The notes under the pieces were generated by a model that was given only the letters and a program-made list of their open reading frames with translations, was not told the origin of the DNA and did not search any database. A DNA stretch of 64,000 bases from Candidatus Omnitrophota bacterium (GTDB lineage Bacteria > Omnitrophota > Gorgyraeia > Zapsychrales > Fredricksoniimonadaceae), in assembly GCA_043742785.1 (NCBI GenBank), contig JAYTXU010000002.1:9707-73706 (forward strand), written 5' to 3'. Both the position numbers and the translations under genes were made by a program. Positions 1-51,102 of this stretch are shown here, piece by piece. Numbering within the stretch: position 1 is the first letter of the stretch; every line of letters begins with the position of its first letter.

Positions 1-715
1 ATCATTAATTCTTTTTTCCCATCCTCTTGTGAAGTCCATCTTAGCAACAGCCGTATTAAACAATTCTTCCGTGATCTTTACTTCTTGGTATTTCATATCA
101 AAGCTATAACCTGACAAGAGATTAATCCGTTTCATCGGAAATTTAGCCGTTGGGTGGTCTACAATTTCGCCGCCTAATTCTTTAATATGCCCTGGGAATG
201 GGTCATTAGCCGTTAACATGCCCCTGATTTCTAGAACAATGTCTTGATATTTTGTATCGTGGTATTTTTCAAAAGCTTTTATGATATTGGTCAGTGTTTT
301 AGAAGAAACATGCCAATGAAACTCATCAATGCTTACCCTAAAATCTATCTTAATTGGTGATAATCCCGCCGGCACTCTTGCCTTAAGAGCGGTAACCAAT
401 TGATCTAAATATTCCTCTGTTCTCTGTTTGCTGGTCGCAAAGTAACCGCTGGTAGACAACGTTATCCTTTGAACCTTTGCTTCTCGGATAAATCTTAAAA
501 CAGTCCCCATTTCACTAACAGCTTCACCGCCTGTCACATCAAGGTTATAAACAGATCTTGCATTAATATACCTAAGCACTCTGTCCAGCTCTTCGAGAGA
601 GAGAATTTTGGCATTCTTTTTAATCGGATTGGCCCGCATCCAACAGAATTCACACTGAACAGGACAATAATCCGTTATTCCTACCAAGATATTATCGAAA
701 TATTCGACTTTGTGA
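1..715 (-). other. Radical-SAM module 2 of the giant ORF (paralog of module 1; continues toward the window edge)
   Basis: GITDYCPVQCEFCWMRANP carries the CX3CX2C cluster at 643-666. It is followed by YNLDVTGGEAVSEMGTVLRFIREAKVQRITLSTSGYFAT. It is collinear with module 1 over its whole visible length. The last visible residues are ...AKMDFTRGWEKRIND at position 1. Confidence 0.7.
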
Positions 716-3700
716 GGGGTGCTTAGAGGTTCCCAGCGAGTCGAACTATTATGATTCTCAATCAATTTGATTAATTCGTGATAAACAAAATCTTTTAACT
801 CGCCATCTTTAAGAAGATCCGACACTGCAAGAAAATGGTTATTCGCCGCAATAGACCGATCCCTTATATTGAGACGCTTGCGGGATGCAATATCTAAAAC
901 AGTGTTCAATCCAAACATCCTCAAAGCTACAACAAGAGGGTCACGTGTTAAACGGCTCTCCACTTCCTTAGAGAAATTGCTATTGTTTGCATTCCCCAGT
1001 TGAAAATCTTTAGCTAAATATTCATGAACAGAAACCGCACCGTCATAACTGATCGATATATTTGTGCTGTCTTCTTTGCCTTCTACCAATTTGGCATCTT
1101 TTTCCAGCCTCTTTTCATAACCTCTGTGGAATTTCTTTTGAGCCAATGTCGTATCTAACATCTCATCCATGAGTTTCACTTCACCATAACGAACGATGAA
1201 TTTGTATTCGGAAGGAAGAACAGCTTTCTTAACAGGATAATTTCCATGCTGCGCCTCTTCTATAATACTTCCACCTAATGATTGGATTATTCCTGGAATC
1301 GGGTCACTATCGATTAAGATGCCTTTAAGAATCAGGGAAATATCCTTATACTTCCCAGCCCAATGCTTTTCGAATATTTTAATAATACGAACAATGTTCT
1401 CGGCTGATACACGAGAATGAAATTCATCTGTGCTTAAAACAAAATCTACTTTTAAAGAATCTTTTCCATCTCCCCTTCTTTGAGTGAGAGCTGCCACTAT
1501 TTCATCCAGCTTTTTCTCTGTTTTATATTCATTAGTCGCGTAATAGCCACTGGTAAATATCGTAATGTGTTTAACCTCTGCCTCGCGGATAATCTTTACT
1601 ATCGACTCCATCGCATCAAGAGCTTCCCCACCTGACAATAAAAGGCGATACACGTGTTTTTCTTTAATAAAGGCAAGAATTCTATCGATCGCCTCAAAAT
1701 TTAATGCCGTGCTTTTTTTCTTATTAGGGTTAGCATGCATGAAACAAAATGAGCACTGTACCGGACAGAAATTCGTGAGGCCAATAGCAATACTGTCAAA
1801 CTGCTTGATCGACACAGGGGTCTTAAGAAGAATCCATGACGCCTGGCTGTTCTCTTGTGCTTTGACCAGATTCCAGTTTCTTCTGATATCATCCGGAGTC
1901 AATCGTTCAAACAAATCAAAAATCACTTCTCGGTATTGAGACGCGGTTGTTCCGATGGCAATTGTTATTGGAGAATCTCCTGTTTCTTTTTGAATTCTTC
2001 TAGAAAGATCAGCTATCATAAATTCACGTGTTCCTGCCTGGAACATCTCTTTGACCAATGGAACACGCAAAACTTGTCGGGAACCTTTTGCATCTTGAGC
2101 AAAAACGACCACATACTGCTGATGTTGAACATTTCTTGAGGCAGCTAATTGCTTGGCCTCTGTCCAGAACTGATCCCACATAGCGGTCAATGGTTCGGCC
2201 TTATAATTCCCTGAAGTAAAAATATTTTTTAACTGTGCTTCATCGGCACCATTAAATATGCTTGGAACAATTCTATTTTTTCGTCTTACGATAAAATGCC
2301 CTATCGCCAGTTGATCTAATCCTTCACCATAAAAATACGTGTTTAGAGCATCTTCTGGCGTCTCAACAATCGGGCCTCGCTTATTGAACGATGTGTTTAA
2401 GACTCCTGGAACACCCGTGCTCTTTCCTAATTCACCTAACAATAACCAATACAGAAGATTAGCTTCACGGGACACTGTTTGAGGACGGGTAGTTCCATCA
2501 TCTGAATGAACGCCTGCTCTTATAATGCTTTTCTTGTCTTCTTTCACAGGGAAAGCTATTGTCATAAAAGGAGCTCTGCTTACTCCCTCTAAGAATTCTA
2601 CCGCGTGTTCTTCTTGAATAGATAACGCTGAGGGACGCCATGGTTCACGACCTTTAATCTGGTTAACCTTGAGATTACCTTCTGGATCATTTAATCGATT
2701 TAAAATGCTTCTGTTCCCCAAGGCCCTCGGTCCTAATTCCGCACCACCCTGGAACCAAGCAACCGTCTTATCCTCCACGATAGCTTCTGCAACTTCTTTG
2801 ACCAATTGCTCATCACTTCCCATACGCTCATAATCAACACTCTCAACTAATCCAAAATTATTTAATACACTTTGAATCTCTTCATCAGAATATGTTTTTC
2901 CAAAGGATATTTTTTTAAGTTCATTTTGAACTTGAAGTCCGTACTCTTCATCGGCTACAGAAAGAGCGGCTCCAATGGCTGTCCCATCATCGGCTGGGTA
3001 CGCTGGTACAAATAATTTATCCGCGTCAACGATGCCGTTTTTAATAAGCTTGCCGTTGGCAGAAATGTTCAGAGCAAGACCTCCGCCCATCGCAACATAT
3101 TTCACGCCCTTTGTTTCCATATTCTCATTAAGGTAATAGGACACCATCTCGCTGATTACTTGTTCAACACGTTCCTGCATTACAAATGCCAAATGCGCCA
3201 TATTGCGATCATCCGGCGTTAAATCACGGCCCGTCTTGCCTTCCGGCATTGGCGGTACAATTCTGCCTAATCGCTGAATAAAACTTTCTGAGAATTTAAC
3301 CCCAGGAAGAGCGCTAATCTTTGTTAATTCATAATCATTTTGATTCATTTCAATCTGCTGGGTTTCTTTATTAAACCGTATCAATTCCTGCATCATTGCT
3401 CTTAATTGAGAAACAGTTTTCTCTTCTTCATTATCTCTTGGCGCTCCATAAGGAGCGTAACCCATCACCTTGCCTTCATCATTTCTGCGATAGCCTAAGT
3501 ACACGGTGATGATATGATAGAAATGCCCTAAGGAATGAGTAAATGGAGTCGTACGCGCAATCTTCTTTAATTTCCCCTCTTTAGCTAACCAAACGGTTGT
3601 TGATTCATCTTCTCCCTGACCATCGATGGAGATAACTACCGTGGGCTCTGTAAATCCGCTGGCATAATACGCTGCCGCTGCGTGGGCCTTATGATGCTTA

Positions 3701-6700
3701 ACAAAGGTGACTGGAGGAACATATTGTGTTCCATAACTAATCGCTAAATCTTTTAGAAATGCTTGGAATTTGTCTGTGTTATATCGTTGATACGATTCCT
3801 TAAAAGGAAGGCCATGTTTCTGACGATACTCAGAGTGCGGATCCTTACTGCCGGGAGTCTCCCGATAGAAGTTATAATCATAGCTGACTGCAATGTGATG
3901 AATATCTTCCCAGTTGATTCCGTAAGCTTTTAATAAATAACGAGTTGCTTCTTTGGGGAAATACGCTGTTGTGTGTTTATCAAGATTAAGCCGCTCTTCT
4001 TCAATAGCCCCGATTAAAACCCCGTCTTTAATTAAAGACGCCACTGAATCATGCCCCGCGCGAACGACACCTAGAATATAGACAGGTTTGTTCTGCTGCT
4101 TTATGTCATCACGAGAATCACGATGATAAATTTTTACAGCCACCTCAGAGGAAGTCACAGCCTGTTTAACATAAAATCTATTGATTAATCCAAGCCGTTC
4201 ATTGATCTCTTGTCCTTTTTTATGAATCTTGATCACCTGCGTTTCCGTGACAATTGTTACTACACCGTCTTTCCAATCAACTCTTTGAATCCCTTTGATC
4301 AAAGATAATATTTCTATCACTGTTTTCTTTTGAGCTAAATAAATTAAAATTCCTGCTACAGCCAATACTCCTAATCCTACCCATCCCCATTGAGCAATGG
4401 TTAAACCTAAAATTGTTTTAACAACCGGCAAGACAGTTGCCTTGGCTGTGATATTTACCGTTTGCGCTGAAGCAGACAGAGCAATGCTTAAAAGGCCTGT
4501 TGAAATCAGCGCTGCAAGACTTGTTCTGTGCATTAATCCTTTGCTAAGTCTTCCTCTGAATTTCATAATCCCATTAGCGCCACCTAATTCTCGTCTATTA
4601 AAAGTAATCCGATTGTTCTGTTTTTCTTTTTGTTTTGTTAAAACAAATCGCGTTCTACATTCTAAAGCGTACCCAATGTATAGTGGTCTTGCCTGCGGAT
4701 GATCATTTTGGAAAGATTCCAAATTCTCAATCACTTTAATATCAAACTGATCTCTTAACTGAGAAGCCACTCTATGTTCAAACATATTAAGAGTCCCTTG
4801 AGACATAAAGAACTTCTTATCTAAGACATAGGCATTGATGGCTGCTTCCTTACTGACTGCTCCAAAACCAAAAGATTTCATCAAAACATCTAAAAGCGTT
4901 AAATTTAAAATATCTTCGTGTGCTAAAACTGTTTCAGGGAAGGTGTCAAAATATAATTTTATCAATGGACGTAAAAACCCTTTGTTGCGCAACTCGCTGC
5001 TAATAGAAACTCCCCTTAGAGCATATTGACCATCCTCTAAACGAATACTATAAATAAACATCTCGTTTCCAAGATCTTGTCCGTTTTCATCAATAAGATT
5101 CAAATAAATTCGATTGTAGATCTTATTCTCTATTGGATAATCTCTTACTCCCTCAATACGGAATTGATGTCCATTGATCCTTACAGTCTGCGGTGTTGTA
5201 CTTTGTGTTGGAACCGTTATCGATTGAAGATTCGGAAAAACAACATTTTGTGAACGTACAAACATAATTAGTACTGCTACAAAAATTCCCACCATCGCTA
5301 ACACACCTAATCCTATCCATCCCCATTGAACGATGGTCAATCCAAGAATTATTTTGGTTGCGACTACAACTGCAGATTTACTTGCAATAACTGTTGTTTC
5401 TGCAGAAGCAGATCTAGCCAAACTTAAAATTCCAATAGAAAGTAATATCATCAACGTCGTCGAACTGCCCCCGTCAAAATTCTCTTTACCATTTTGTTTA
5501 ACAATCGCTGTCTTGCTCTTTTTCATCCAACCTAAAAAGACAGTGCCGATTCTTTTTAAGACGAACGCCCCAAGAATTGCAGCAACGATGCTGGCTAAAG
5601 CCACGGCTACCTTACGTGCTAAAACATAATCAAACACCAAAACAGGCTTCCTTGGGGCAGGCCTGCCTGCCGGTGAGGCAGGGTGAGATACAACGGGTTT
5701 AGGATTATTCTGTTTCGGTGTTAATAAAGAAGTTGCTACGCCAGCTCCCACATTTGTTGCCTGTGGTGATACACGGGAATCACCACGCTTATTACCTGGG
5801 GCAGGGTGAGTAGCTGGCGTTAAATTATTTGTTTGAGCACTGCGAATAGCATTAGTTGAAGTTTTAGATGTTGCGTTTGTCTTTAATGTGATGACCGTCT
5901 TAGCGGCAGCTGTGTTGGAAGACACATTAACAACAGCATTGGTTGCTGGGTGTAAATTAACACGCCCCTTGGAAACATCCCCGCTAACAAATTCTAACGT
6001 GTCCCCTATTTGGATATTATGCTCTTGTGCGTACCCACTGCTTACTTCCAGGACATAGACAGCGTTTTGTTGAGACTCATTTCTTAATTGTTTGCTTGGC
6101 TCATCCTTACTAGCATTCTTTGTGATATGAATAATTTGCATTTGCTTATTAAGCCAGAGAATATCGATATTAAATTTCATATTAGGCATCGCAAATGCTG
6201 AATTGTGTACGCCTAAAAATAACATCCCCGCATTAGCTGCTAAATTAATTCTGTTGCTTAAACCATTTTCTTTTTTCTTTTGACTAACAGCCGCTTCAAC
6301 TTTGAGTTCAGCTTTGACCTCTTTGCCTAATAATCCTCGAATGATACCTCTTCCTACATCGCCATCTTTTCTAAGATAATCCGTTGCTTGAAATTTCGTA
6401 TCCTTTCCGGCTACACTTTCTACTTGTTTAACGCTAGCGATCTTTGACATTTCTGCCAAGCCTTCTTCAATCTCACGGGAAGTGGTGCATGCTAACGTTT
6501 TTCTTTGTAATTCTTGTTCTGACTCAAGTCGACTAAATACTTCCGAAGTGCTCATTACAGGGTTTGTTTGTTTTATTGAGCGACGATAGTCATTCCAAAT
6601 TTGTTCTGCGGTTGATATCTTCCTGTCTTCTGACTCCCTCTCTCTTCCTAAAAGTTCCCCTGCGAATGAACGGTTTCCTCTGACTAATCTTTCTTCTTCA

Positions 6701-9700
6701 ACTCTCTTTTGTTCCGCTTGAAGAGTGTTGTAATAACTAAAGTCTTCGGCAAAACCTGTGTCGGTGGGGAATGGTTTGGTATCTAGTACAACTTCGTATG
6801 GAACCACGAAATTTAATTCTTTCCATTTCTTAATAAGAGCATCAACTCCTTCAGAATCTTTTTCTGTCTCCATACGCTCTTCTGCTGCAGGACTATTTCG
6901 TTTTATTAACTTTCGTACAATAGAAAGTGATAACAAACTTAGCGATAATCCCCCTACGATTAAACGCCAATTATCATTAATAAATTTAAAAACGCCAGCT
7001 GCCACATTTGTTGCCTGTGGTGATACACGGGAATCACCACGCTTATTACCTGGGGCAGGGGGATCAGCTGGCGTTAAATTATTTGTTTGAGCACTGCGAA
7101 CAGCATTAGTTGAAGTTTTAGATGTTGCGTTTGTCTTTACTGTGATGACCGTCTTAGCGGCAGCTGTGTTGGAAGACACATTAACAACAGCATTGGTTGC
7201 TGAAGAAACTTTATTTACAACTTGAGCAGGGACAATTTTGTTGAATAGTTCTTTTTGAATCGCATCTTTATTGATATATCCAATCCTAAGGACTGTGGCA
7301 ATCATCAAAGAAGCAATAACTACCTTAATCTTATTCTGAGCGATCATCTTTATTGTATTCTTAGCAACATGAATTCCTGCTAACACGCTAAAGACAACTA
7401 GTGCAACCGCTTGACTTATTGCTTCCACTCCGATGAAGGACATGACACGGTTAACATTGAGGCTATAAGCCCCTGGCTTGCTGTTAATCTTAGCTGGAGT
7501 ATATTCCATTTGAGTTGTAAGCCAATCAATCTTCTCAAGCTGCACAATGGTGGGATTGTTATTGAGAATGCGTTCAGCTTTCTCAATCTCCGCGATTAAA
7601 TGATCCACGTTACCGATTCTTTGAAGTTCAGCGACATATTTCTTCAAGTATTCGATGCGGTTACGTAAATCATACGCAAACGGACTATAATTTGTTGCTG
7701 TTTGTGACCTGCCAACAAGTTCATTAATTTCTTTTTGAGCAGGATAAACATACTTATTGTCTTTTACATATTCTGGCTTACCCGCAATGGCTGTATTACT
7801 TAAGACTGTCAAAGCTCGTAATACGGCTGGCAAATTAACACGTGTATACATCTTGCGTGAATGACCAGGATATACGTGGAACAATCCGATCATTTCAATT
7901 GCTTCGTCCTTCTTATTATCAGGAATATCTCCCCATTTCTCAACTTTAACACCTAAATCAGTAATTGTTTTCTGTAATCGATCTTCTGCATTACGAGAAA
8001 ATTTAAAAATAGATCCTAAATTATATTGTAGACGTTCAATCTGATCGATCACTCCCCAAGTAAAGGCAAATATAATATGTGCAAAATTCTTCCTCATATC
8101 TTTCGCCTTATTATCTGTGCGGGCTGGATTAAAGAAGAATGGAGCTGCAATCCCTGCTAAAGGCATTAATAAAGTGAAGGCCCATAAAATAGCCTTAGTT
8201 GGATGGAAACCAATTGCAATAAAGACTAAAAGACCAAAACCTGCAGCTGTTTGAATAGCAGGAGCGCTGCGCATATAAACTGTATTCCAATCCAATTCAC
8301 GTTCAATATTAGCTCCCTTACCACCTGTACTAATGAAACGACCTAGGCGATTGGCAGCTAGTTTCCCAATCGTTTCGTTATAAACAAAAATCATGTGTAC
8401 ATAATAAGTAAATAATCTTGGAAATCCTTTAATTGTCTTTGCGATGCCTCCAACGTATCCATTAGCACGGTCAAAAATATTATAGAGGAATAAACCGTTA
8501 CTGATTGCTTGTGATAAGGCCAATGATCCAACCCATAACACAACAGGTAATCCTGAGAATAAGTTCCAATCAAGAACTAAATAGAATGGTACTAGCCATT
8601 TAAGGTAGCGGATAATCGCTGGCTTCTTTAAATAGAAACCAAATCCATCCAACCATAAATTGTTTACTAAATATGGCCAATCAACATATGGAGACATCAT
8701 CATCTTTAAATTCGTACGACCCGTTATAGATTCTACAGAGTCATAAGACCACTTACGGATTGGGTTGCGAGCTGCCTGGAATTGATTCGGCCAACCCTTC
8801 TCATCTTTAACATAACCAGCATATCCAGAAATATAACCAACACGACGATAAGCCATTGTTGTCAAAGCATCTTCAGCTACATAAGAATCGGTAATACCTT
8901 CAGACCAACGCAAAGCAGAAACACGTTCAAAAAGTTTACCGTAGGTTGTAAGCCCGCCGAAGAGCATCTTGCCCCTCATGGAGTGATAATAAAATGCATT
9001 TTCAGAAGTTGGCATTACTGAACCTAAAGGACCAATATCTTGAGTAATGGTATGTTTTACCACTGGCGTTGAGGTCGCTAATCCTGGATTATAGAAATAT
9101 TCATTAATATGGGCCAAAATAAACTGACTGTCTGCTATGTTAGTACGATGATCCGCATCAATATTCAACGCCACTGGTCCAATAATATAAGGAAGTTCTG
9201 ATGTCTTTTGGTTCCATTTAGAACGATGATAGATTTCTTGTTCATCACCAAACCTAGGAAGATTAGTTCCTTCAAATAAAAGAGCTGGGAACACTCTTTG
9301 TTTATAAACAAGGTTAAATAAATTCTTACTTCCTTCTTCATTTCTTAATAAATTGTCGATCACTTCTAAAGAAAGGCCTTTTATAGATTGTCCATTAGCA
9401 TCGATCTTTGCAGTATTTGTATAATTAGTTTCAATAAGAACATCTACAATCTCTCTTAATTTATTATTTAATACTCCATTGAGCTTATGAACAGCTGATA
9501 AATTTCGATCCATAATACGGAATCTGCTATACGCCCATTCATTGTCCATTCCAAACTGTTCTGCAATAGCTTCATAAATAACGAACATTGCTTCCTGATG
9601 AGAACGAGCATTGTTATAGCCCGTTGGTAATTGACGATTAGCCCATTCTTTAATCTGTGGCCAAATACTCCAAATTTCTATTCCCTCTGGCTTATGCATA

Positions 9701-12700
9701 GGTTTCTTAATCATCTTAAGCAATTCACTTCTTTCATTTGAATTTTCTGCTGTTAAGTGTCTTACCATCAACAAGAAAGCTTCTGTCTTATCCTTAGCCA
9801 ACATACCTAAACGATGCGTAAACTGAACTGTTTCTCCTGGAAGATCCGTTCCTAAAAGACCTACATTATTAAACCAGTAATCTTCAGTCGCACCATTAAT
9901 TAAAACTGTCATAGGAATGGTTTCATCAGCACTGGCTGGCTCTACGCCTTTATCCAAACGATAATTCCCATTGATATATTCAATAATACGAACCATTCCT
10001 GTTCGATCATCATTCTTAGCTCTAATTCCATTAACAATCACTGGCTTAGCTAATGCTTTAACCAACGCTTTGAGTTCAGCACGTAAAGCATTTACAGTTG
10101 TTTCTGAAGTATTAATTGTTTCGCTTAATTCTCTTAAACGAACAACTAGGTCAGTTCTATTGTCAATGGCCTTCCCTTGAGCAAAATAGTTATACCCATT
10201 ATCATTAACCATCTGTCCAACAATCCTGCTGAAAAATGCTAAGCGAACTTGACCTTGAGTCGCAAAACGATTAGCTCCGGTTGTTGGTGTTTTATCAGTA
10301 AATAATTTCATCAACCGATTTACTGCTTGTCTAGCGTTGCCTTTATTTTTAAGCTCATACACATTATTGACCCAGTTGTATCCGAAGCTAGCCATACCCA
10401 TAAACAAATAATTAGCGGCATAGAAGCTTAATCTCCAGGTTTCAATAAAGATGAGGGCGGGGATAATACGAAGCGGCCATTGTGCCCAAGCTGGAACTGC
10501 AAAGATAACCATGGCGCCAGATGGTAAAATCATTGACCAAGGAGTGATCAAAGCTCCTATCATGCTTAACGCTTGTAAGCCATAGAACATGATTAACCGT
10601 GCGCGAAGAGCTTTGAATGCAGATTTCTTTTCCTTCTCAAGATCTACAATCTTGGTTTGATCCTTTTCATCCTTTATTTGTGCTTCAATATCAGCAATAT
10701 CTGCTTCTAGCTTTTTACGTAATGGATTTTTAACTAAAGCACCTGCGATGAGATTGAAGATCGAAGCTCCTGCTGCCATAATGACTGCCCATGGCATGGT
10801 CATAAAGTTGGTTACCCCAACACCCTTTAGTAAAAGCCCTGCAGCTGGGAAGGCTAACCAAACAAATAAGGCAGTTACAGAAGCAATTAAAACATAATGG
10901 TAAGCCCTTCTCATCAAATCACGAGCTGTTTGATTATACGGACCACCTTTTGAGAAGATCGCATGACGCCAATTCTTGCTTTTTAATAAAGTCCATAAGG
11001 CTATTGCATTAATCTTCCACATCGCTAAACGTGTTTTGACAACTGGCATGCCAATTGCCTGATCAACGGTGTTAACAAAGGCAAGCATCAAAGGTTTAAA
11101 TTCACGTAAGAAGTCTTGAATAGCAGCTTCACGCTGGACAAAAGGAACATCTAATAACGTTTGCATCTCGAAAAGCTTTTGTTCAATTCTACGACGAAGA
11201 GGATCTATGTTGGTCATTACTTCTGCAGGAATTGCCCCTCCTGGCATATTCGCTGTAGCATCTTTTTGACCTAATAGATAACGGAAGGTATCGTTATAAA
11301 TTTCTTCAGTGATAATTTCATGGAAATAAGCTACCTTGCCTTTAGGATCACGGTTATCTTCAATTCTCTTTTGAATTTCATTAAATAGAAGAACATGGAA
11401 GACTTGTTTAAAAATTTTGACCTTATTAAGGAAGTTTGCCCCAACAAAGCTATTATTAGTCGTCAACGCAGGATAAGCATACTTAGCCCAGAGATACTCT
11501 TCTGCTCTTCCTTGTCCTGCTAATCCAAAGAGCGCGCGTTGGAAGATGACTTGCATAACAAATAACTTCTCAACAGAAACTAATGCGCTGCGGACTTGAC
11601 GTTGCATATCTGGTCCTTTGCGTAAATCATCCCAAGCATAAACAACCATGCTGCTCTTGATATCAAAATCATTAAAGCTAAAAAGCTCTGGTAATTGACG
11701 AGCATTGAAGATATTAGCAAAGAAGGTTTGCTTTAAAGCTTCGATCTGATTACCAAAGGCATTGTCAAAACCAGTTTCTGTAATGATCTTATTCGCAATA
11801 TTTTTAACATTACCCTGGAAGTCTTTGTGATCACGCATCTTGGCATATAGTTGCACCAAGATCGCTTGAGTTGCACGACGCTTATCAAAGGTATTCACAA
11901 GTTTCTTCACATATAAAGAACCAATCACCTGTTGCACGATTTCAATACTCATGAAGGCGTTCAACATTGTTTCAAAAGACTTAACTGCATTCTTTTCAGC
12001 ATCGTTAATACCGTACAAAGCTGTAAGTTCTTTCATAAATTCAACAATCGTTGCAGTTCTTATTAAACGACCTAAATCTTCTTGGGTAAATGTTTCTTTG
12101 TTAGCTGCATAACGAAATTTCTTAGCATTTTTCATAGCCACATAAAAACGTGCCTTAGTAAACAACGCGCGCAAAGAATGTCCTGATAGAATATGTAAGT
12201 TCTTTAATTCATTCTCAATACGATTCTTAAATTCTTCGTTATTTTTATAAGCTCCATTCATTTGACGATTTCGAACAATAGCCATTGATTGAGCAGGAGT
12301 AAAGCCCATTGATTCAAATGTCTGAACACCCTCATAATTAGCATCAACTTTGGAACGATTGCGCAATTGATAAAAGGTAAAACCAATTCCTGGGATAATA
12401 AACCCAATCATTAAAAGGAGTGTTGCCATTCCTCCGACAAACCACCAAGCGCCAATGCTGATTCTATTTAGCACTCCCATGACAGTGGTTCCTTCTTTAC
12501 CTTCATAAGTAGAAGAAGCAGGATTTGCGATATTGATCTTTACTTCTCGCCCATTTTTCTCAATTAAAGAAATGATATCGTTGTTCTTCATATCTGTAAT
12601 TTTTTGTATTCCCCAAGAAATTGGACTGTTACGGAAAAGATCTTCCATGTTAAATACTGACGGGTATGGAGCCGTGTTACGATTAAATCTATCTGCACTC

Positions 12701-15700
12701 CAAACCACTTGACCATTTTTAATAAGAATCTTACGGTCATCATTGATGCTGTGCGTAGCTACTTCAAAACCGCTTTGGGTAGCATGTTTTTCTGTCACTA
12801 ATTGCCAAATATCTCCGGACTTTTCATCAGCCCAGACCTTATTAATCATGTTACGGTAGCTGTATTCCGTTCCATCAACCATGCGATTAACAAAGACTGG
12901 ATAACTATTAAGATAATAAACGCGCAAGGTCATTGTGTTGTATTCGCGTTGTTCAAAATAAACACCCGTTGCAAGAGAGTATCTAGTGTCTACGTTATTA
13001 ACCTTTTCCATCCCTTCTTCAAGACCCTTATAAATAGCTTCCGAAGTTTTATTGTCTACAGAAGTTAACGCAGTGTCTCTGAGAACATTCTTGCCTCCTA
13101 ATAAGGTGCTAATATTTTGGTTAATAACCATTTGTCCTGGAGTCAACTCCAATTGAGAAGGCATCCACCACTTATTAATACTGGTTTCACCCGAAGGACC
13201 TTGAAGGGCAATGTCGCGGTTAAGAGGATCTTTAGGCATCAAATAACGATGCTGTGTTCCTGTGGCAAAATTCGTAAATACCCCGTTAAGATTAATATAG
13301 GGGACTTCAAGAAGCTCTGGTAACGGGGAGTCTTTATCTAAGCCGAATATTGTAAATTTATTCTGTACTCCATTCACAGCTTGTCCAAGCGTGATTGTTT
13401 TTCCTTCTTTCAAAGTGAAGGCATCCCCCACAGAAGTTGCCTTGATACCTTCTGTCGCTTTATCATCTTTCCAAGCCGTGTTAATAATCACAATTGGATT
13501 GCTGTTAGGACGAATAATTTCTACTACGGTACGGCCAAAGATATCTCCTTTAACGCGGTAACTTACAGACACCATCCCATATTCACGACTTGCTGTTGAT
13601 TTTTCAAGAGTTGCTTTTCCATTCTTAATGCCCATTTGTTGAGCAATAAATTCCACAGCCTTATTTGCTTTTAAAACCATCTCTTGATAAAGAACATTGT
13701 CTGAAACAACCGTGGCAATGCCTTTATTTAAATCTTCTGCTGAAGCATCTATTGTCACAGCTGATTTTTGATGCTCAAATTTCACAAAAACATTTGTTTT
13801 GTTTTCCAAAACAGCATGATAGGCTTCAAAGGTTCCTTGATTCTCATTCTTTAATAACACCTGGTAAAGATTAGTAACAGGACCAGGAATCTGTTCAATA
13901 TTTCCAATTTCACGAGAATGTTTTGTATCGATAATATACATTTTCTTGCTAAAGGTTCCGTTGGTCTCTTTACGGCCTGCTACAAAAAGATCTGAAACAC
14001 TAACGCCAGGAATTATTACAGGTAAATTCTTGAGATTAAAATTCATTTTTACAGCATACCCAACAATATCTTTTCCGATTTCATAATTATTGTTTGAGGC
14101 TGTGAAGTTATAGATTTCTCTTACCTCTTCTTCTGAATAACCAATAATCGCACTTCCTTTGCTAGCAACTCCGTTGACCATTTCCGTAGGATAAAATTCT
14201 ACATAAACAAGCCCAATACCTTTCTTCTCTTTACCTTCAATTGGAACAACAACAGCAAATGCTTTTTCAAATGCTCCCGTTGGAAGACGTCGTTCAATAC
14301 GTTGAACTTTTTGTCCTTTAACTTCAAATGATTCTCCAACCTTATGGGCGATCGCCAATAAGGTGTTTTCATTACGCTCTGTGTTAAATGGATAAATATT
14401 CTCTGTTCCATCGTTATTGACAACTCCCACCTGTACGTCATCTTGAATAAAATAAACACGTTCAATAGTCTCTGTTTTGCTCCCGTTGGTACGAATTTTG
14501 ATCACTTCGAAATTCTTATTGTTGCGAATAAATTCTTGATTAGCTGGAATCATCAACTCTGCCATGGTTAAAAATTCGCTGGTCTTGGCTTCTGTGTCAT
14601 TCAACATATAATTATTAGCTAAGAAATCTTTTACAGAATTGTATGCAACAGGCTGCGCCTTAACAGGAATGCGAGTTGTTCCTTTTTCTAATACAACTTG
14701 TTGATCATATTCTTCTCCAACAATAGGCTTGATATGACGGATACTTGTGCGGTTCTGATTCATTAAATCAATGAATTCTTTTGCGCTGTAAATTTTGATT
14801 TTGTTTGTTGATAAGTCTGAAGCTTCAACTCCGCCGGCAATCAGGGTTTCTAACTGAACCTTACGTTTTTCAAGCGCTTGTTTACCTGCATCCAAGATAG
14901 CCACCACGCGTCCAGCTTGAACCTTAATCATCATATTCTCTGTGATTGCGATCTTTTTCGTCTGGCCATTCTCATTACCGATCTCAATAGCCTGACCCAC
15001 ATACTTTTTATCTTCCACAAATTTAGCAGGAGCAAATTCATTAGCTTTAGCCGTTTCTATGTTCCCTGATGGAACAGAGATAGAAAGCCCTTGTCCTTCA
15101 TAGAATGGAAGAATTCTGCTTAAACGTTCATTCTCTGCGGCTGCCTTTGTAATCCATTCCTTCATTGTCTTCACAGATGGAGCAAAAATTCCAACGCTTT
15201 TACCGTCTACAGGCATTTGGATAAGAGCATTTCCAGGAACTTTGATTTCACGGCCGCCAACATTGAATACAATTCCCTTATCTGTTTTCACAGCGCTGAT
15301 AACAACAAGATCTGCATTTCTTAAATAACGGGCAACCTTTAAATGGCTTGTTGAATCAATCGCTTCTGGTTTGTTATTACTTAAATAGAAGATGGTGCCC
15401 GCCTTAGCTTGAGCTGCTGTATCCAAATCTTCTAACAAGTTGGAAGTTTCAAAGAGATATCCTGGAACCTTAGGAGTTAATTGATCCTGTAAAGCTTCGT
15501 TCATAGCCTTTGTAGCGGTCACTGGACCGTTATTATTTCTGACCTTATAATATTCCTTGACCACAGTACGAGATTCCCCAAACATAGAATTATAAGCATC
15601 CGCTGTACGGGTGAATTCATCTTTAGCATAATCGACAAAGACATTGCCAATTTTATGGGCGATTTCCATTTTAGTCGCTTTGACGGCATGAATTTCAGCC

Positions 15701-18700
15701 GCTGGGATATATCTAATGCCTGTTGTATCTTTCTCAACTAAGGCTAAGTATCTAGCATCGGTAATGATCTGAACAATCTCTCCGGATACAGGATGACGAA
15801 GCATGCCTAAAATTTCTTTGCTGTGTTCAATCGCAAATCGTTCATTCAATAAAGCGATTCTGGAAGGAAGAGCTTTGACTAATGGCTTGCTTAAATCAAC
15901 ATTGCCGTTGCTGGAGGCTGCGAAATACATCTTCTTCGACACAAAGGTTGGTGAGGTAAAGACATAGCGGACTTGAGCTTTTCCGTTGCCTAAATCTTTA
16001 ACCATGAACCCGCGAACCTTGCCCTTATAGACTATCTTGTCTTGATCAACACTGCCTTTGGCTTTATCAAAACCATGTCGATTGTTTTGGACATACGGCG
16101 TTGTTACGTCAACCTCATCAAACATCTCGATATAGGCAATATTCTTGGCTTCTTCAGGTTTGATGCTGGCAGCATATTCAAAGCCTGCTTGATACAATCC
16201 AATATCAAATTGTTTGCCTAAATTCTCGAATGGGAAGCGTTTATTAGTGTCTCCTAAAAGACTCCATACAGGTTGTAAGAAACCGCCTGTTAATCGATTT
16301 AAACCGCTTGGGATGGCGCGTAAATCATCAAAGATACCAACGCTATAAGCATTCTTCTTTTGTAATTCATTATTCTGATCAGCTACTTCAATAGGGATTC
16401 TATTGATTAACAAGGTGCTAATAGGATATTCCAACCAGAATTTATCTGTGGAGATTAACTTGGTTTGATATCTATTTTCATGTAAGACGGCATAGTTGCG
16501 CAATTCCAAAGCGATATCAACCAAGCGGGCAGGACCCATAAATTTATTTAAAGCTGTTTGCGCGCCGAACTGGCTGAAGCCTTGGATGATTTGGAACGCT
16601 TCTAATCCTGACTTAAATGGATGATCAAAATTAACAATAAATGTCGCTGTCTGATTTGGTGTTCCTATAGGAGCAGACATCATTGGGAAATTGTAATTAT
16701 TAACAATGCCTAAGTTTACTGGCAAACCAGGACGAGTTAATACTGTCTTGGCTAATTTTCTCTGGTCATTTAACTGAGAATCAATAAAGGCTTTCCTGCT
16801 ATCATCATCTGTTTTAATTCCTAGCGCCTCTCCAGCTGCCTTTTTCTCTAACGCCTTGCGGGTATCTTCTTCATACTTGGCGATTTCAGTTTCTAATTTC
16901 TTTGAACCTTCTTTATTGTCAGCAATGGTCTTTTTAATCTCTGCCATCTTTCCTGGGATGCCATGGCTTAAAGCATCGTTGACGACCTTTAATTCATCCT
17001 CAGGGGTAAGCTTAGAATCAACACTCTTAGCATTAGCCAACACAAACCCTTTAATATCCACATTGCCATCTTTGTCAACAAACGTTGCGACAGGAACACT
17101 GGAAGCAGTTAAGGCAACACTCTTATTTCTGATTGTTCCAAAGATGGCACGGCGGGCATTGTTAAGAACGTTTTGATAATCATTCTTAAATTCTTTAGCA
17201 TCAATGCTAGCCACATATCCTGCATCGACCAACATCACAGCAGGATTTTGAACATTTAATTTTAAATTAGCCAATACGCTATTCGTTCTAATCGCTTCTG
17301 GCATATCCGCTTCATTGATGATCTTGCTGCCTGTAGCCATATACAAGCCATTGGTGCTGCTTCCAACAATCACCATTGGCTCATCGGTCATTCCTTCTTC
17401 CATGGCCTCAATAGAGGTGATGCTAAATACTGGCTTACCAGCATTTAACGTAGCACCCTTATTGAGGCGTTCTGTAATACTGTGAACTGTGCTTGTTGAG
17501 GCAGGTACGGTTTGAACACTTTGACTCTTAGGGAAGTCAGTAGCGTTCACATTGCTTGGGGCTGCGGCTGAAGAAGCAGCAGTGTTTACTTCAGGAGCCA
17601 AGGTGGCATCCACATTATTAGTTGAGGCTGTCTGTGCTGTAGCGCGGGCTTCTGGCTGTGTCTGGATGTTTAAGGATCCCGCTGAAGCTGTTGAGATCTT
17701 CTTGGTCGAGAAGTTGCCAAGATTCGTTGAGCCCGTTGCGTTTGGAGATGTTACCGTTGTGTTCGATGAGGTAGATGTGAATCCTGTTTCCTTGGTCCCT
17801 TGCTGTGGCAATTGAAGCGTTGATGTCGTGAACTTTAACGAAGTGTTGGATCCGAAACGTGTTGCTAACCATGGTGCACCTCCGTTGGTTTGTTGCTTAA
17901 CTGTTAATAATTGTTGATTGGTTACTAAACTACGAATAGATCTGCCATCACCAATGTTGAGCGCAGTGGTGTTGGTAGCGCCCTGGGGTAGAGCGCGTGG
18001 TGCATGGGTATTGGAATAACGGGTGGACAAACGAACTCCACTGCCAGAATCAGTAGGTTTTAGAACCAGTGATTTAGCGGTGGTTGCAAAAGCTTTCTGC
18101 TCCTTCGAATTAGCTCCTGGGATGGAACTATCTGCGGGCAGACTATGGGAACCATTGATATTGCTTGAATATCTAAACTTACCTTTATAAGTGAGAGAAC
18201 TTGCATTTCTTATACTACTTGCTTTTTGCGTACGAACAGAATCAGTGCTTGGAACGTTTCTTCTTGTTCCTCTCACACTTCCTGCACCTATAGAACCTTC
18301 TGTATATTTATCAGCGTCTACGTCGCCACCCTTGGACAAACTTCTCACACCTTGAGCGCTTGTATCCTTTAGAGAGCTTTCGCTACCCTTAGGACTAGAC
18401 ACGCGAATGTCATTTTTAGTACTTCTAGCTACGGCAATGGCATCGCCACTACCAGAACGGATCCTGCGTGATTCACCAGCATTGCTTCTTTCTACGGTAC
18501 TGCCAGCTACAACTACGGTGTTGCTTTCGCTTATATTGACACTTGTTACTTGTGCTTCAGGTGCGATGATGCCACCATTTGTTAACTTGAACTCACTTCT
18601 TACTTCTGTCCTACTTGCTACCTTACTGCTTACTGCCTTGGTACTTGATGCACTACCATTTACTCTTTGTTTCTCTTGGGCAGAGCTTGCGCTAAACCCA

Positions 18701-46971: not shown

Positions 46972-47046
46972 TTTTTATGGTCAAACTTTTTATCGCCTTC
47001 TGCTTGCCAGCAGATAATTCTCGACGATGCCGCCCCGTATAAACAG

Positions 47047-48173: not shown

Positions 48174-49151
48174 ATGAAAACATCTACTGGTCAAAAAATA
48201 TTGGACTATCTTGCAAAAAACAAGCAATCAACCCCAAAAGACCTTTATAATCTCTTAGACCTGAGTCCTAGAGCCATTTTCAAACAACTTAGAATTCTTT
48301 TAGAAAAAAATTTAATTCAAAAAATCGGAAGCCCTCCTAAAGTTTATTACCAGTTATCCCGCGATCCTATTGTCAAAAAAGAAAATTCTTTAGATGAACA
48401 AACAATCCAAGCAATTAATAAAAACTTTTATTACATTTCCCCTAGGGGAACTGAAGAAATTGGTGTAAATGGATTTGAAGAATGGTGTCACAAACAAAAA
48501 CTGGATATAAATAAAACAGCTTCTGAATATCTCTCTACCTTAAAAAAATACGAGCAATTTAAAAATAACGGCCTTATTGATGGTTCCTCCAAAATAACTT
48601 CAACTTTTCCTCAAGTAGCTTTGGATAAAATATTTTATCTGGATTTCTATGCTATCGAACGGTTCGGCAAAACGAGACTTGGGCAATTACTCTTGCTTGC
48701 AAAATCCAGCCAAAACAAAAAACAAATTTCTTTCTTAATGGAAACAATTAACCCCTCAATTCAAAAAATAATCAAAGAATTTAACATTGATGGAGTCGGC
48801 TTTATTCCTCCTAGTGTACGCCGCGAGACTCAATTAATGAACGAACTTAAAAAACGCCTTCCTATTAAACAAAAAATAATGTCTATTGTAAAAACAAGAT
48901 CTTCTGTCGTGGTAGCGCAAAAAACTCTAAGCAAACTTGCCGACCGTATTGAAAATGCCAAGCACACCATTATTGTAGAGGACAAGGTGCCTTTTAATAA
49001 TATCTTGCTCATTGATGACGCTGTTGGTTCGGGCGCTACCCTTAATGAAACAGCCTCTCAAATCAAAGAAAAGAAACTTTGTAATGGCCTCTTAATTGGT
49101 TTGGCTATTGTCGGAAGTTTTAAAGGCTTTGATGTCATCAGTGAAGTGTAA
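48174..49151 (+). CDS. Winged-HTH protein fused to a ComF-like phosphoribosyltransferase domain
   Basis: The N-terminus is GQKILDYLAKNKQSTPKDLYNLLDLSPRAIFKQLRILLEKNLIQKIGSPPKVYYQL, which looks like a wHTH. The C-terminus has a PRPP-binding loop, NILLIDDAVGSGATLNETASQIKEK, preceded by ...QKTLSKLADRIENAKHTIIVED, as in ComF-family proteins. Confidence 0.6.
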   Translation: MKTSTGQKILDYLAKNKQSTPKDLYNLLDLSPRAIFKQLRILLEKNLIQKIGSPPKVYYQLSRDPIVKKENSLDEQTIQAINKNFYYISPRGTEEIGVNGFEEWCHKQKLDINKTASEYLSTLKKYEQFKNNGLIDGSSKITSTFPQVALDKIFYLDFYAIERFGKTRLGQLLLLAKSSQNKKQISFLMETINPSIQKIIKEFNIDGVGFIPPSVRRETQLMNELKKRLPIKQKIMSIVKTRSSVVVAQKTLSKLADRIENAKHTIIVEDKVPFNNILLIDDAVGSGATLNETASQIKEKKLCNGLLIGLAIVGSFKGFDVISEV

Positions 49152-51078: not shown

Positions 51079-51102
51079 GGAAATCAGTACTGCTGTTATT
51101 CT

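What the first reader, a model, noticed from the sequence alone, without database searches (positions are those of the whole stretch)
7290..12470. Cyclic-glucan-synthase-like glycosyltransferase core embedded between TM bundles of the giant protein
Motifs LNIDADHRT...AHINEYF, MLFGGLTTYGKLF, VAEDALTT and IRKWSYDS occur in the order and spacing I remember for the GT domain of Cgs/NdvB cyclic beta-1,2-glucan synthases. At least eight predicted TM helices flank them.

A processive polysaccharide synthase inside a giant adhesin-like protein would mean the protein makes and exports a glycan rather than only binding or degrading one. Together with the carbamoyltransferase and radical-SAM tail, it could form a self-contained synthesis-and-decoration unit.
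Basis: partly seen in the sequence, partly recalled or inferred. Interest (0 to 1): 0.55.

Follow-up and report, generated by a model that had tools for sequence, protein, structure and literature searches.

The report
Fungal-type glucan synthase module in giant protein

Summary
All five motifs are present in the stated order in one uninterrupted minus-strand ORF of at least 15,658 aa (window 46974..1), and 10-11 hydrophobic helices flank them.

The segment is a GT-A glycosyltransferase domain set between two transmembrane bundles, as in processive polysaccharide synthases. It is not Cgs/NdvB-like (GT84).
- A 20-sequence profile hits yeast FKS1/GSC2 (GT48) at E about 1e-19, across the GT domain and the following membrane helices. 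BcsA scores 1e-10, and Cgs gives nothing at E<=10.
- An AlphaFold2 model (pLDDT 80, pTM 0.80) matches Fks2/Fks1 best (Foldseek E 1e-10, about 930 columns). Cgs ranks 44th.
- Pfam, NCBIfam and single-sequence PDB searches find no glycosyltransferase family in this segment.

The residues matching FKS1 K1082, D1102 and E1221-D1222 are invariant in 54-59 relatives. Charge distribution places the GT domain in the cytoplasm.

Named relatives come from Omnitrophota and Elusimicrobiota metagenome-assembled genomes, mostly inside giant proteins and labelled "hypothetical". The unit carries DADH where FKS1 has DAN. It also has a conserved N-terminal domain of about 470 aa with no known fold.

No relative carries the carbamoyltransferase/radical-SAM tail, so a fixed "synthesis-and-decoration unit" is unsupported. 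The product is unknown.

The parts
1..46974 (-). Visible part of the giant ORF (at least 15,658 aa; the C-terminus lies beyond the window's left end). Residue r begins at window coordinate 46974-3(r-1).
   Evidence: Stop-free frame found. Start ATG at 46971. Pfam finds Peptidase_C39, DEAD, DUF192, carbamoyltransferase and radical SAM elsewhere in it.
7270..12462 (-). Conserved FKS-like synthase unit, residues 11,505-13,235 (about 1,730 aa)
   Evidence: The core 12,000-13,000 has 73 relatives. The upstream 11,506-12,010 and downstream 12,990-13,200 segments are contiguous with the core in several relatives.
12364..12462 (-). Leading transmembrane helix TM0 (residues 11,505-11,537), followed by a K/R-rich stretch
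   Evidence: Hydropathy scans. AlphaFold2 model of alignment A2 gives helix 2-43.
10945..12363 (-). Conserved helical domain of about 470 aa, predicted cytoplasmic, with no known fold. It carries a helix-hairpin-helix-like (ComEA-like) motif near residues 11,545-11,590.
   Evidence: Alignment A2, 9 sequences, 16 invariant columns. Model pLDDT 74. Best Foldseek PDB E-value is 2. Weak helix-hairpin-helix/ComEA matches.
10384..10905 (-). N-terminal membrane bundle TM1-TM4 (residues 12,024-12,197)
   Evidence: Hydropathy. Model helices 18-52, 63-103, 107-148 and 163-203. K/R counts alternate 4/1/11/0/3 along the loops.
8635..10383 (-). Cytoplasmic GT-A glycosyltransferase domain (residues 12,198-12,780, about 580 aa)
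   Evidence: The A1 profile aligns with FKS1 831-1281. The model shows alternating strands and helices. Foldseek top hits are Fks2/Fks1.
9883..9885 (-). E12364, equivalent to FKS1 E851 (a UDP-glucose-binding residue at the end of the first beta strand)
   Evidence: Aligned. E in 41 of 46 relatives, D in 3. FKS1 residue role from PMC12715860.
9604..9645 (-). WANRQLPTGYNNAR, aligned with FKS1 'WASLRSQTLYRT'
   Evidence: Profile alignment; sequence.
9217..9219 (-). K12586, equivalent to FKS1 K1082 (UDP-glucose binding). It lies exactly 20 residues before the DxD aspartate, as in FKS1.
   Evidence: alignment. Invariant 54/54.
9148..9159 (-). DADH motif (D12606-A-D12608-H), at the position of FKS1 D1102-A-N1104 and of the BcsA DxD
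   Evidence: alignment. D12606 is invariant 56/56. D12608 is D in 41, N in 7 and H in 3 of 56.
8935..8943 (-). YGK motif (12,678-12,680), aligned with FKS1 'HYGHPD'
   Evidence: Y-G is invariant 58/58.
8869..8874 (-). ED motif (E12701-D12702), equivalent to FKS1 E1221-D1222. D12702 is the presumed catalytic base.
   Evidence: alignment. Invariant 59/59. FKS1 role from PMC12715860.
8749..8757 (-). R-K-W motif (12,740-12,742), at the place of the (Q)xxRW acceptor-binding motif of cellulose-synthase-like enzymes
   Evidence: Position 12741 is K or R in 59/59; position 12742 is W, Y or F in 59/59. Spacing ED to RKW is 38 residues, against 39 from D343 to R382 in BcsA (BcsA residue numbers quoted).
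8125..8622 (-). C-terminal membrane bundle TM5-TM8 (residues 12,785-12,950). It includes FISTGGKG (12,880-12,887; window 8314-8337) and APFFFNP (12,944-12,950; window 8125-8145), which align with FKS1 'YISTGRGF' and 'APFIFNP'.
   Evidence: Hydropathy, model helices and the profile alignment reaching FKS1 residue 1497. Conservation: F12880 in 53/56, T12883 in 40/55, K12886 in 47/54.
7270..8124 (-). Conserved helical segment (12,951-13,175) followed by a TM hairpin (13,176-13,235) that closes the unit
   Evidence: Homology to P0003, P0016, P0002 and P0004 downstream of the core. Hydropathy.

Best explanation
Residues about 11,505-13,235 of the giant protein form one conserved unit. It is a divergent prokaryotic relative of the eukaryotic GT48 beta-1,3-glucan synthases (FKS1/FKS2, callose synthases) and belongs to the cellulose-synthase-like class of membrane-embedded processive glycosyltransferases.

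Shown:
- The unit has a GT-A domain of about 580 aa set between a four-helix and a four-helix membrane bundle.
- It shares with FKS1 the nucleotide-sugar-binding Glu and Lys, the first Asp of the DxD position, the ED catalytic pair, and motifs that extend into the membrane helices.
- These residues are invariant across the family.
- The local charge pattern puts the GT domain in the cytoplasm.

Inferred:
- The domain binds a UDP-sugar in the cytoplasm. UDP-glucose is likely by analogy only.
- D12702 acts as the catalytic base to add sugars to a growing chain, and the chain is threaded outward through a channel formed by the flanking helices.
- The unit has DADH where FKS1 has the metal-independent DAN, so catalysis is probably dependent on a divalent metal, as in GT2 enzymes.
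- The polymer and its linkage are unknown. A beta-glucan is the best guess.

The unit is one module of an Omnitrophota giant multi-domain membrane protein of the 'Archaeovorin' type.
For: - Profile of 20 family members against PDB sequences: FKS1/GSC2 at E 1e-19 to 1e-18 over FKS1 831-1497. Motifs align register for register: K1082 with K12586, D1102 with D12606, E1221-D1222 with E12701-D12702, 'YISTGRGF' with FISTGGKG, and 'APFIFNP' with APFFFNP. BcsA scores E 1e-10 over the GT core only.
- AlphaFold2 model: pLDDT 80, pTM 0.80.
- Foldseek against PDB: Fks2 9wzs_A E 1.1e-10 and Fks1 9wzu_A E 5e-10, TM-score 0.48-0.50 over 910-930 columns. BcsA, hyaluronan synthases and CesA follow.
- Distant family members reach Pfam Glucan_synthase PF02364. 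P0072 scores 8e-29 and 100.8 bits against a cutoff of 37.2. Four of the 20 aligned members hit it, with a best E of 6e-18.
- Catalytic residues are invariant in 54-59 relatives.
- Against the closest genome (85% amino-acid identity), dN is 0.11 while synonymous sites are saturated.
- Positive-inside pattern: K/R counts of 4, 1, 11, 0, 3 along the N-terminal bundle and 2, 0, 3(+7), 1, 5 along the C-terminal bundle.
- Closest genomes are two Candidatus Omnitrophica metagenome-assembled genomes.
Against: - The window's own sequence matches no glycosyltransferase family: nothing in Pfam at E<=0.01 or at E<=1, nothing in NCBIfam, and no PDB sequence at E<=10 on its own. The link to GT48 rests on a profile and a predicted structure.
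- Foldseek TM-scores are moderate (about 0.5) and rmsd is 8-9 A.
- The FKS1 accessory domain was not detected. The conserved upstream domain has no PDB fold match.
- The DxD position reads DAD, as in GT2, and not DAN as in FKS1.
- No activity, donor sugar or product can be read from sequence.
- Model coordinates could not be inspected, so the channel and the active-site geometry are unverified.
Confidence: 0.7

Rival explanations
1. The module is a divergent bacterial GT2-type synthase (cellulose-, curdlan-, chitin- or hyaluronan-synthase-like). Its resemblance to GT48 is only the fold shared by the whole class, so nothing about a beta-1,3-glucan product or a special tie to FKS follows.
For: - BcsA is matched at E 1e-10 by the profile and at E 6e-7 by structure.
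- Six of the 20 aligned relatives hit Pfam Glyco_trans_2_3 PF13632.
- The DxD position is a canonical DAD, as in metal-dependent GT2 enzymes.
- The DxD-to-ED spacing (96 residues) equals that of BcsA (97), not FKS1 (120).
- From general knowledge, the bacterial beta-1,3-glucan (curdlan) synthase CrdS is a GT2 enzyme.
Against: - FKS scores nine orders of magnitude better than BcsA with the same profile, and the match is about 2.5 times longer. It continues through the membrane helices with motifs absent from the BcsA match: HYG/YGK, YISTGRGF/FISTGGKG and APFIFNP/APFFFNP.
- The GT domain is about 580 aa, as in FKS1 (about 570). The BcsA match covers only about 230 residues.
- K12586 lies 20 residues before the Asp, exactly as in FKS1.
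- Relatives reach PF02364 above its curated cutoff.
Confidence: 0.2
2. One reading: the module is a Cgs/NdvB-type (GT84) cyclic beta-1,2-glucan synthase core.
For: - The generic D...DxD...ED...RW motif order is shared with Cgs (D527/D624/D739/R773; PMC10901819).
- Cgs appears among the Foldseek matches: 8rf9 at E 6e-3 and 8rf0_A at E 1.4e-2.
Against: - The family profile gives no Cgs hit at E<=10, although Cgs entries are in the PDB.
- Cgs ranks 44th by structure, behind FKS, BcsA, hyaluronan synthase, CesA, the mannosyltransferase and chitin synthases.
- The Pfam scan of the whole ORF found neither of Cgs's companion domains, the GH144-like cyclase and the GH94 phosphorylase.
- Cgs has six TM helices and a GT domain of roughly 340 aa (residue range from my own knowledge, not checked here). 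This module has 4+4 helices and a GT domain of about 580 aa.
Confidence: 0.03
3. The module is a catalytically inert relic that serves only as a membrane anchor or scaffold within the giant protein.
For: - No family HMM recognises it.
- It sits in a protein made of many rapidly diverging domains (West-Roberts et al. 2023).
- No activity data exist.
Against: - Every residue that is catalytic or substrate-binding in FKS1 is invariant across 54-59 relatives that share only 20-50% identity overall.
- Strong purifying selection acts on the module against the closest genome.
- Stand-alone versions of 740-1,040 aa exist in ordinary bacterial gene neighbourhoods. This argues that the module has a function of its own.
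Confidence: 0.07

Closest known systems
Fungal beta-1,3-glucan synthases FKS1 / FKS2 (GSC2), CAZy family GT48 (PDB 7xe4, 8jzn, 9wzs, 9wzu)
   Same: - It is the best profile match (E about 1e-19) and the best structural match (E 1e-10, about 930 aligned columns).
- Both have a GT-A domain of about 570-580 aa inserted between membrane bundles.
- Shared residues: Glu (E851), Lys (K1082, same 20-residue distance to the Asp), Asp (D1102) and ED (E1221-D1222).
- Shared motifs: HYG/YG, YISTGRGF/FISTGGKG and APFIFNP/APFFFNP.
   Different: - DADH replaces the metal-independent DAN motif.
- DxD-to-ED spacing is 96 residues, not 120.
- There are 4+4 (plus 1+2 outlying) helices instead of 6+11.
- No FKS1 accessory domain was detected; a conserved 470-aa domain of unknown fold takes that position.
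- No Rho1 partner is expected in a bacterium.
- The window's sequence fails Pfam PF02364.
- The host is a bacterium, and the module is embedded in a protein of more than 15,000 aa.
Bacterial cellulose synthase BcsA (GT2; PDB 4hg6, 4p00)
   Same: - It has the cellulose-synthase-like fold.
- It has a canonical DxD.
- Its DxD-to-ED/TED and ED-to-RW spacings are nearly identical (97 and 39 against 96 and 38).
- It is matched at E 1e-10 by profile and 6e-7 by structure.
   Different: - The match is limited to about 230 residues of the GT core.
- The module has no PilZ domain.
- No FFCGS or QxxRW sequence is present (YGK and xRKW instead).
- The membrane-helix motifs are FKS-like, not BcsA-like.
Cyclic beta-1,2-glucan synthase Cgs/NdvB (GT84; PDB 8rf0, 8rf9)
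   Same: It is a large multi-domain bacterial membrane protein with a GT2-like GT-A domain under a TM bundle, and it has the same generic order of acidic motifs (PMC10901819).
   Different: - No profile match at E<=10.
- Structural rank 44, E 6e-3.
- No cyclase or GH94 phosphorylase domains were found here.
Giant 'Archaeovorin'-type proteins of Omnitrophota (West-Roberts et al. 2023, bioRxiv 10.1101/2023.11.21.568195)
   Same: - The host protein fits the description: more than 15,000 aa, many TM helices, an N-terminal C39 peptidase domain, a DEAD/SecA-like helicase domain, and a secretion-system gene upstream.
- The closest genomes are Omnitrophica metagenome-assembled genomes.
   Different: - That paper reports GT5 and GT1 domains. 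It folded only regions without TM helices.
- Neither it nor the 2026 Omnitrophota preprint mentions a glucan-synthase, FKS or GT48-like module.

Membership tests
GT48 (FKS / callose synthase; Pfam PF02364 Glucan_synthase) | Sequence reaches the family HMM's curated cutoff | tested here: not met
   The window's residues 11,400-13,300 give no PF02364 hit at E<=0.01, nor at E<=1 for residues 12,000-13,000. Distant relatives do reach it: P0072 scores 100.8 bits against a cutoff of 37.2, and 4 of 20 alignment members hit it. dbCAN's GT48 model was not available.
GT48 (FKS / callose synthase; Pfam PF02364 Glucan_synthase) | Detectable homology to solved GT48 enzymes across the GT domain and the following TM helices | tested here: met
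   A1 profile against PDB: FKS1/GSC2 at E 1e-19 to 1e-18, profile positions 143-705 aligned to FKS1 831-1497. Foldseek E 1e-10, TM-score 0.48-0.50.
GT48 (FKS / callose synthase; Pfam PF02364 Glucan_synthase) | ED catalytic motif and UDP-glucose-binding Glu/Lys (FKS1 E851, K1082, E1221-D1222) | tested here: met
   E12364, K12586 and E12701-D12702 align with them. They are conserved in 41/46, 54/54 and 59/59 relatives.
GT48 (FKS / callose synthase; Pfam PF02364 Glucan_synthase) | DAN motif in place of DxD (metal-independent catalysis) | tested here: not met
   The window has D12606-A-D12608-H. Across relatives the third position is D in 41 of 56 and N in only 7 of 56. FKS1's DAN is described in PMC12715860.
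GT48 (FKS / callose synthase; Pfam PF02364 Glucan_synthase) | N-terminal cytosolic accessory (AC) domain before the first TM bundle | tested here: inconclusive
   A conserved helical domain of about 470 aa occupies that position. Its model (pLDDT 74) has no PDB match; the best E is 2. The alignment behind it is shallow (9 sequences).
GT48 (FKS / callose synthase; Pfam PF02364 Glucan_synthase) | Product is linear beta-1,3-glucan made from UDP-glucose | not testable with these tools
   This needs an enzyme assay and linkage analysis.
GT84 (Cgs/NdvB cyclic beta-1,2-glucan synthase) | Sequence or profile similarity to the Cgs GT domain | tested here: not met
   No Cgs chain was matched at E<=10 by the single sequence or by the family profile.
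GT84 (Cgs/NdvB cyclic beta-1,2-glucan synthase) | Cgs is the closest structure | tested here: not met
   8rf9 ranks 44th (E 6e-3) and 8rf0_A ranks 47th, behind FKS, BcsA, hyaluronan synthases, CesA, the mannosyltransferase and chitin synthases.
GT84 (Cgs/NdvB cyclic beta-1,2-glucan synthase) | Accompanying GH144-like cyclase and GH94 phosphorylase domains in the same polypeptide | tested here: not met
   The Pfam scan of all 15,658 visible residues reported only Peptidase_C39, DEAD, DUF192, carbamoyltransferase, radical-SAM-type domains (Radical_SAM, Fer4_12) and three sub-threshold chance-level hits (p450, PB4_spike, Radical_SAM_2). The C-terminus beyond the window was not seen.
Cellulose-synthase-like membrane-embedded processive GT-A synthases (structural class spanning GT2, GT48 and GT84) | GT-A domain with D, DxD, ED and (R/K)W motifs, docked under a TM bundle on the cytoplasmic side | tested here: met
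   Motifs and spacing. The model and all top-50 Foldseek hits belong to this class. Positive-inside pattern.
Omnitrophota giant 'Archaeovorin'-type proteins | Protein of more than 10,000 aa with many TM helices, an N-terminal C39 peptidase and a SecA-like DEAD domain, in an Omnitrophota genome | tested here: met
   At least 15,658 aa. Peptidase_C39 at E 8e-9. DEAD at E 1.8e-4, below Pfam's cutoff. About 20 distinct hydrophobic helices. Nearest genomes are Omnitrophica metagenome-assembled genomes at 85% and 72% identity. Family description.

The most novel reading that the evidence does not exclude
The giant-protein modules of Omnitrophota and Elusimicrobiota, their stand-alone bacterial cousins, and the DAN-bearing protein from a Njordarchaeales-labelled genome bin together form the prokaryotic sister or ancestral lineage of the eukaryotic GT48 beta-1,3-glucan synthases. 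FKS and callose synthase would then have arisen from a prokaryotic, metal-dependent DxD enzyme whose motif later shifted to DAN. These ultra-small, possibly predatory bacteria would build an exported glucan from within a megaprotein.
Probability: 0.25. Interest if true: 0.8.

Novelty: new variant of a known kind. Interest (0 to 1): 0.6.

Why it matters
GT48 enzymes build the fungal cell wall, are the target of echinocandin antifungals, and make plant callose. The papers I could read describe them only in fungi, plants and green algae and do not discuss a prokaryotic origin.

This is a conserved prokaryotic family that shares GT48-specific motifs right into the membrane helices but keeps a canonical DxD. 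It offers three things:
- a natural outgroup for asking how the metal-independent DAN chemistry and the FKS channel evolved;
- smaller stand-alone relatives (740-1,040 aa) that might be easier to work with experimentally;
- a concrete biosynthetic activity for the giant Omnitrophota proteins, which so far are discussed mainly in terms of attachment and cell-wall degradation.

It also shows that scans which skip membrane regions, or rely on family HMMs alone, miss such modules.

Tried and rejected
1. Direct family searches of the window's segment found no glycosyltransferase: Pfam, NCBIfam and single-sequence PDB phmmer at E<=10. The Pfam p450, NCBIfam PhoU and NCBIfam comE hits there fall below their cutoffs and are chance-level.
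2. The word-indexed homologue search returned only one partial Omnitrophota protein, both with the single sequence and with the 20-sequence profile. The exhaustive representative search was needed.
3. The search for related loci with alignment A1 failed because no conserved stretch was long enough. The single-protein scan found only two close Omnitrophica genomes, so the wider taxonomy rests on source names for about a dozen hits.
4. I tested whether the conserved upstream 470-aa domain is the FKS1 accessory domain. It has no PDB fold match (best E 2), and its profile gives only a weak helix-hairpin-helix hit. This is left as inconclusive.
5. I tested whether the carbamoyltransferase, radical-SAM or DUF192 tail travels with the module. 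phmmer of those segments against all 73 relatives gave nothing, and Pfam of P0003, P0005 and P0013 showed only a phosphoribosyltransferase domain downstream. A conserved 'decoration unit' is rejected. A role in this one protein cannot be excluded.
6. I looked for a second copy of the module in the visible ORF and found none.
7. dN/dS against the two close genomes could not be computed because synonymous sites are saturated. Only dN (0.11 and 0.19) is informative.
8. Literature searches for GT48 or glucan synthase in Omnitrophota or other prokaryotes found nothing relevant in the held library. This is absence in that library only.

Full report
WHAT IS THERE

The window contains one stop-free minus-strand reading frame from coordinate 46974 to coordinate 1. 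It has 15,658 codons, its first ATG is at 46971, and it continues beyond the left end of the window.

All five quoted motifs are present in the stated order:
- LNIDADHRT at residue 12,603
- AHINEYF at 12,621
- MLFGGLTTYGKLF at 12,670
- VAEDALTT at 12,699
- IRKWSYDS at 12,739

Hydropathy scans and a structure model give the flanking helices:
- one helix at 11,505-11,537
- four between 12,024 and 12,197
- four between 12,785 and 12,950
- a hairpin at 13,176-13,235

WHAT THE DIRECT SEARCHES SAY

Family libraries do not recognise the segment. Pfam gives no glycosyltransferase hit at E<=0.01, or at E<=1 for residues 12,000-13,000. NCBIfam gives nothing meaningful. The single sequence matches no PDB chain at E<=10.

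Elsewhere in the ORF, Pfam finds the following:
- Peptidase_C39 (residues 298-374)
- a weak DEAD helicase match (4,234-4,374)
- DUF192 (13,558-13,662)
- both halves of a carbamoyltransferase (14,300-14,898)
- a radical SAM domain (from about 15,066)

RELATIVES

An exhaustive phmmer search of 1.84 billion representative proteins, using residues 12,000-13,000, found 73 relatives at E<=1e-3 and 33 at E<=1e-30. Most are pieces of very long proteins (2,000-7,500 aa). Several are stand-alone proteins of 740-1,040 aa.

Where a source names them, they come from Candidatus Omnitrophota or Elusimicrobiota metagenome-assembled genomes, nearly all labelled 'hypothetical protein'. One (P0072) is labelled Candidatus Njordarchaeales. 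The closest genome matches are two Candidatus Omnitrophica assemblies, at 85% and 72% amino-acid identity, so the window almost certainly comes from an Omnitrophota genome.

The host protein fits the published description of giant 'Archaeovorin'-type Omnitrophota proteins: many TM helices, an N-terminal C39 peptidase, a SecA-like DEAD domain, and secretion genes upstream.

WHICH FAMILY

Distant members of the set connect the module to known families. P0072 scores 100.8 bits (E 8e-29) on Pfam Glucan_synthase PF02364, the GT48 family, against a cutoff of 37.2. Others give weaker PF02364 or Glyco_trans_2_3 hits.

I aligned the window's segment with 19 relatives (alignment A1) and searched the profile against all PDB sequences. 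The results were:
- Yeast beta-1,3-glucan synthases GSC2/FKS2 and FKS1 come first, at E 9.6e-20 to 1.7e-18. The alignment runs from FKS1 residue 831 to 1497, covering the GT domain and the membrane helices after it.
- Bacterial cellulose synthase BcsA follows at E 1.3e-10, over the GT core only.
- The cyclic glucan synthase Cgs is not matched at E<=10.

The alignment puts the functional residues in register. FKS1 residue roles are taken from PMC12715860.
- FKS1 E851 aligns with E12364.
- K1082 aligns with K12586; both lie exactly 20 residues before the Asp.
- D1102 of the DAN motif aligns with D12606 of DADH.
- E1221-D1222 aligns with E12701-D12702.
- 'WASLRSQTLYRT' aligns with WANRQLPTGYNNAR.
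- 'HYG' aligns with YGK.
- Within the membrane region, 'YISTGRGF' aligns with FISTGGKG and 'APFIFNP' with APFFFNP.

STRUCTURE

AlphaFold2 with alignment A1 gave a confident model of residues 12,000-13,000: mean pLDDT 80 and pTM 0.80. It shows long helices at both ends and an alternating strand/helix domain between them.

Foldseek against the PDB ranks the hits as follows:
- Fks2 (9wzs_A, E 1.1e-10) and Fks1 (9wzu_A, E 5.2e-10) come first. Their TM-scores are 0.48-0.50 normalised to the query, over 910-930 aligned columns, which is nearly the whole model including both membrane bundles.
- BcsA (6e-7), hyaluronan synthases, plant CesA and chitin synthases follow.
- Cgs appears only at rank 44 (8rf9, E 6e-3).

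All top hits belong to the cellulose-synthase-like class.

IS IT LIKELY ACTIVE, AND WHICH SIDE DOES IT FACE

I aligned all relatives to the profile. Conservation at the key positions is:
- K12586: 54/54
- D12606: 56/56
- Y12678-G12679: 58/58
- E12701-D12702: 59/59
- position 12741: always K or R
- position 12742: always aromatic
- E12364: E in 41 of 46
- third position of the DxD motif: D in 41, N in 7 and H in 3 of 56

Against the 85%-identical Omnitrophica genome, dN is 0.11 while synonymous sites are saturated. This pattern indicates a working enzyme, not a relic.

K/R counts along the loops alternate as the positive-inside rule predicts. They are 4, 1, 11, 0, 3 around TM1-TM4 and 2, 0, 3(+7), 1, 5 around TM5-TM8. 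This places the GT domain, the domain upstream of TM1 and the segment after TM8 in the cytoplasm. That is where nucleotide sugars are, and where the GT domains of FKS1, BcsA and Cgs sit. I could not inspect model coordinates, so the channel and pocket geometry remain inferred.

EXTENT OF THE UNIT

The roughly 500 residues before the core (TM0 plus a helical domain, 11,506-12,010) and the roughly 200 residues after it are conserved and contiguous with the core in several relatives. The unit is therefore about 1,730 aa, close to the length of FKS1.

The upstream domain was modelled from 9 sequences (pLDDT 74). It matches no PDB fold; the best E is 2. It carries only a weak helix-hairpin-helix/ComEA-like signal near its start. 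Whether it corresponds to the FKS1 accessory domain is unresolved.

Only one copy of the module occurs in the visible ORF.

THE 'SYNTHESIS-AND-DECORATION UNIT' IDEA

None of the 73 relatives contains a segment similar to this protein's DUF192, carbamoyltransferase or radical-SAM regions. That includes relatives with 1,700-4,600 residues downstream of the module. Pfam on three of them shows only a phosphoribosyltransferase domain downstream. The association is therefore not a conserved design. It may still matter in this one protein, but nothing here supports that.

MECHANISM PROPOSED

Shown: homology and fold shared with FKS-type synthases, conserved catalytic residues, and a cytoplasmic orientation by the charge rule.

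Inferred:
- The GT-A domain binds a UDP-sugar with E12364, K12586 and the DADH motif.
- Because the second Asp is present, a divalent metal is probably used, unlike FKS1.
- D12702 deprotonates the acceptor hydroxyl.
- The K/R-W motif holds the terminal sugars of the chain.
- The polymer is passed outward between the two four-helix bundles.
- The sugar and linkage are unknown. A beta-glucan is a guess by analogy.

COMPARISON AND NOVELTY

The module works like FKS1/BcsA-type synthases. Strict membership of GT48 is not established:
- It fails the Pfam family threshold.
- It lacks the DAN motif.
- No accessory domain is detectable.

It shares GT48-specific motifs that GT2 enzymes lack. I therefore file it as a new variant: a divergent prokaryotic GT48-like family, mostly embedded in giant proteins.

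The two papers on Omnitrophota giant proteins report GT1, GT5 and starch-synthase domains but no FKS-like or GT48 module. One of them folded only TM-free regions. Searches of the held library found no description of prokaryotic GT48-like synthases. That is absence in that library only. CAZy itself could not be consulted.

VERDICT

It is a real, probably active, membrane-embedded polysaccharide synthase module that faces the cytoplasm. It is related to fungal FKS-type glucan synthases, not to Cgs/NdvB. Interest 0.6.

Noticed in passing
window 1-46974 (minus strand): A single ORF of at least 15,658 aa that runs off the window. It contains Peptidase_C39 (window 45853-46083), a weak DEAD/SecA-like match (33853-34275), DUF192 (5989-6303), carbamoyltransferase N and C halves (2281-4077) and radical SAM (1486-1779). 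About 9,000 residues between these have no Pfam hit at all.
   Followed up: partly
window 12205-12342 (residues about 11,545-11,590): A helix-hairpin-helix / ComEA-like motif lies directly after the leading TM helix of the synthase unit, on the predicted cytoplasmic side. Support is weak: NCBIfam comE E 0.08, and the A2 profile against the PDB EEPD1 helix-hairpin-helix region E 2e-4. A DNA-binding-type motif next to a polysaccharide synthase is unexplained.
   Followed up: partly
window 49846-60004 (minus strand): A row of genes lies upstream of the giant gene: a sugar C-methyltransferase, an AAA_14/DUF4143 ATPase, a GT2 glycosyltransferase, a DegT-type aminotransferase, a 211-aa unknown, two B12-binding radical SAM enzymes, a T2SS-F-like membrane protein, and a 285-aa ORF (59147-60004) that was not scanned. 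It looks like a modified-sugar pathway plus a secretion component.
   Followed up: partly
window 60429-63986 (minus strand): A 1,185-aa ORF with no Pfam match.
   Followed up: no
window 48174-49151 (plus strand): The only sizeable plus-strand gene next to the giant gene's start. It has an ArsR-type HTH domain and a weak phosphoribosyltransferase domain, so it may be a regulator. Phosphoribosyltransferase domains also occur downstream of the synthase module in relatives P0003 and P0005.
   Followed up: no
protein P0072 (from; not in the window): A 961-aa protein labelled Candidatus Njordarchaeales (an Asgard archaeon) on a 2.9-kb contig. It passes Pfam Glucan_synthase (8e-29), carries a DAN motif like FKS1, and matches FKS1 at only E 4e-12. 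It looks like a prokaryote-labelled intermediate between this family and eukaryotic GT48. A binning error cannot be excluded.
   Followed up: partly
protein P0046 locus (not in the window): A stand-alone 949-aa relative of the module sits beside an outer-membrane efflux protein gene and a B12-binding radical SAM gene. B12-binding radical SAM genes also lie upstream of the giant gene in this window. Whether this is a real association was not tested.
   Followed up: no
whole window: GC skew is negative in every 2-kb bin and is strongest at 30-44 kb (down to -0.31). This is consistent with almost all coding being on the minus strand.
   Followed up: no
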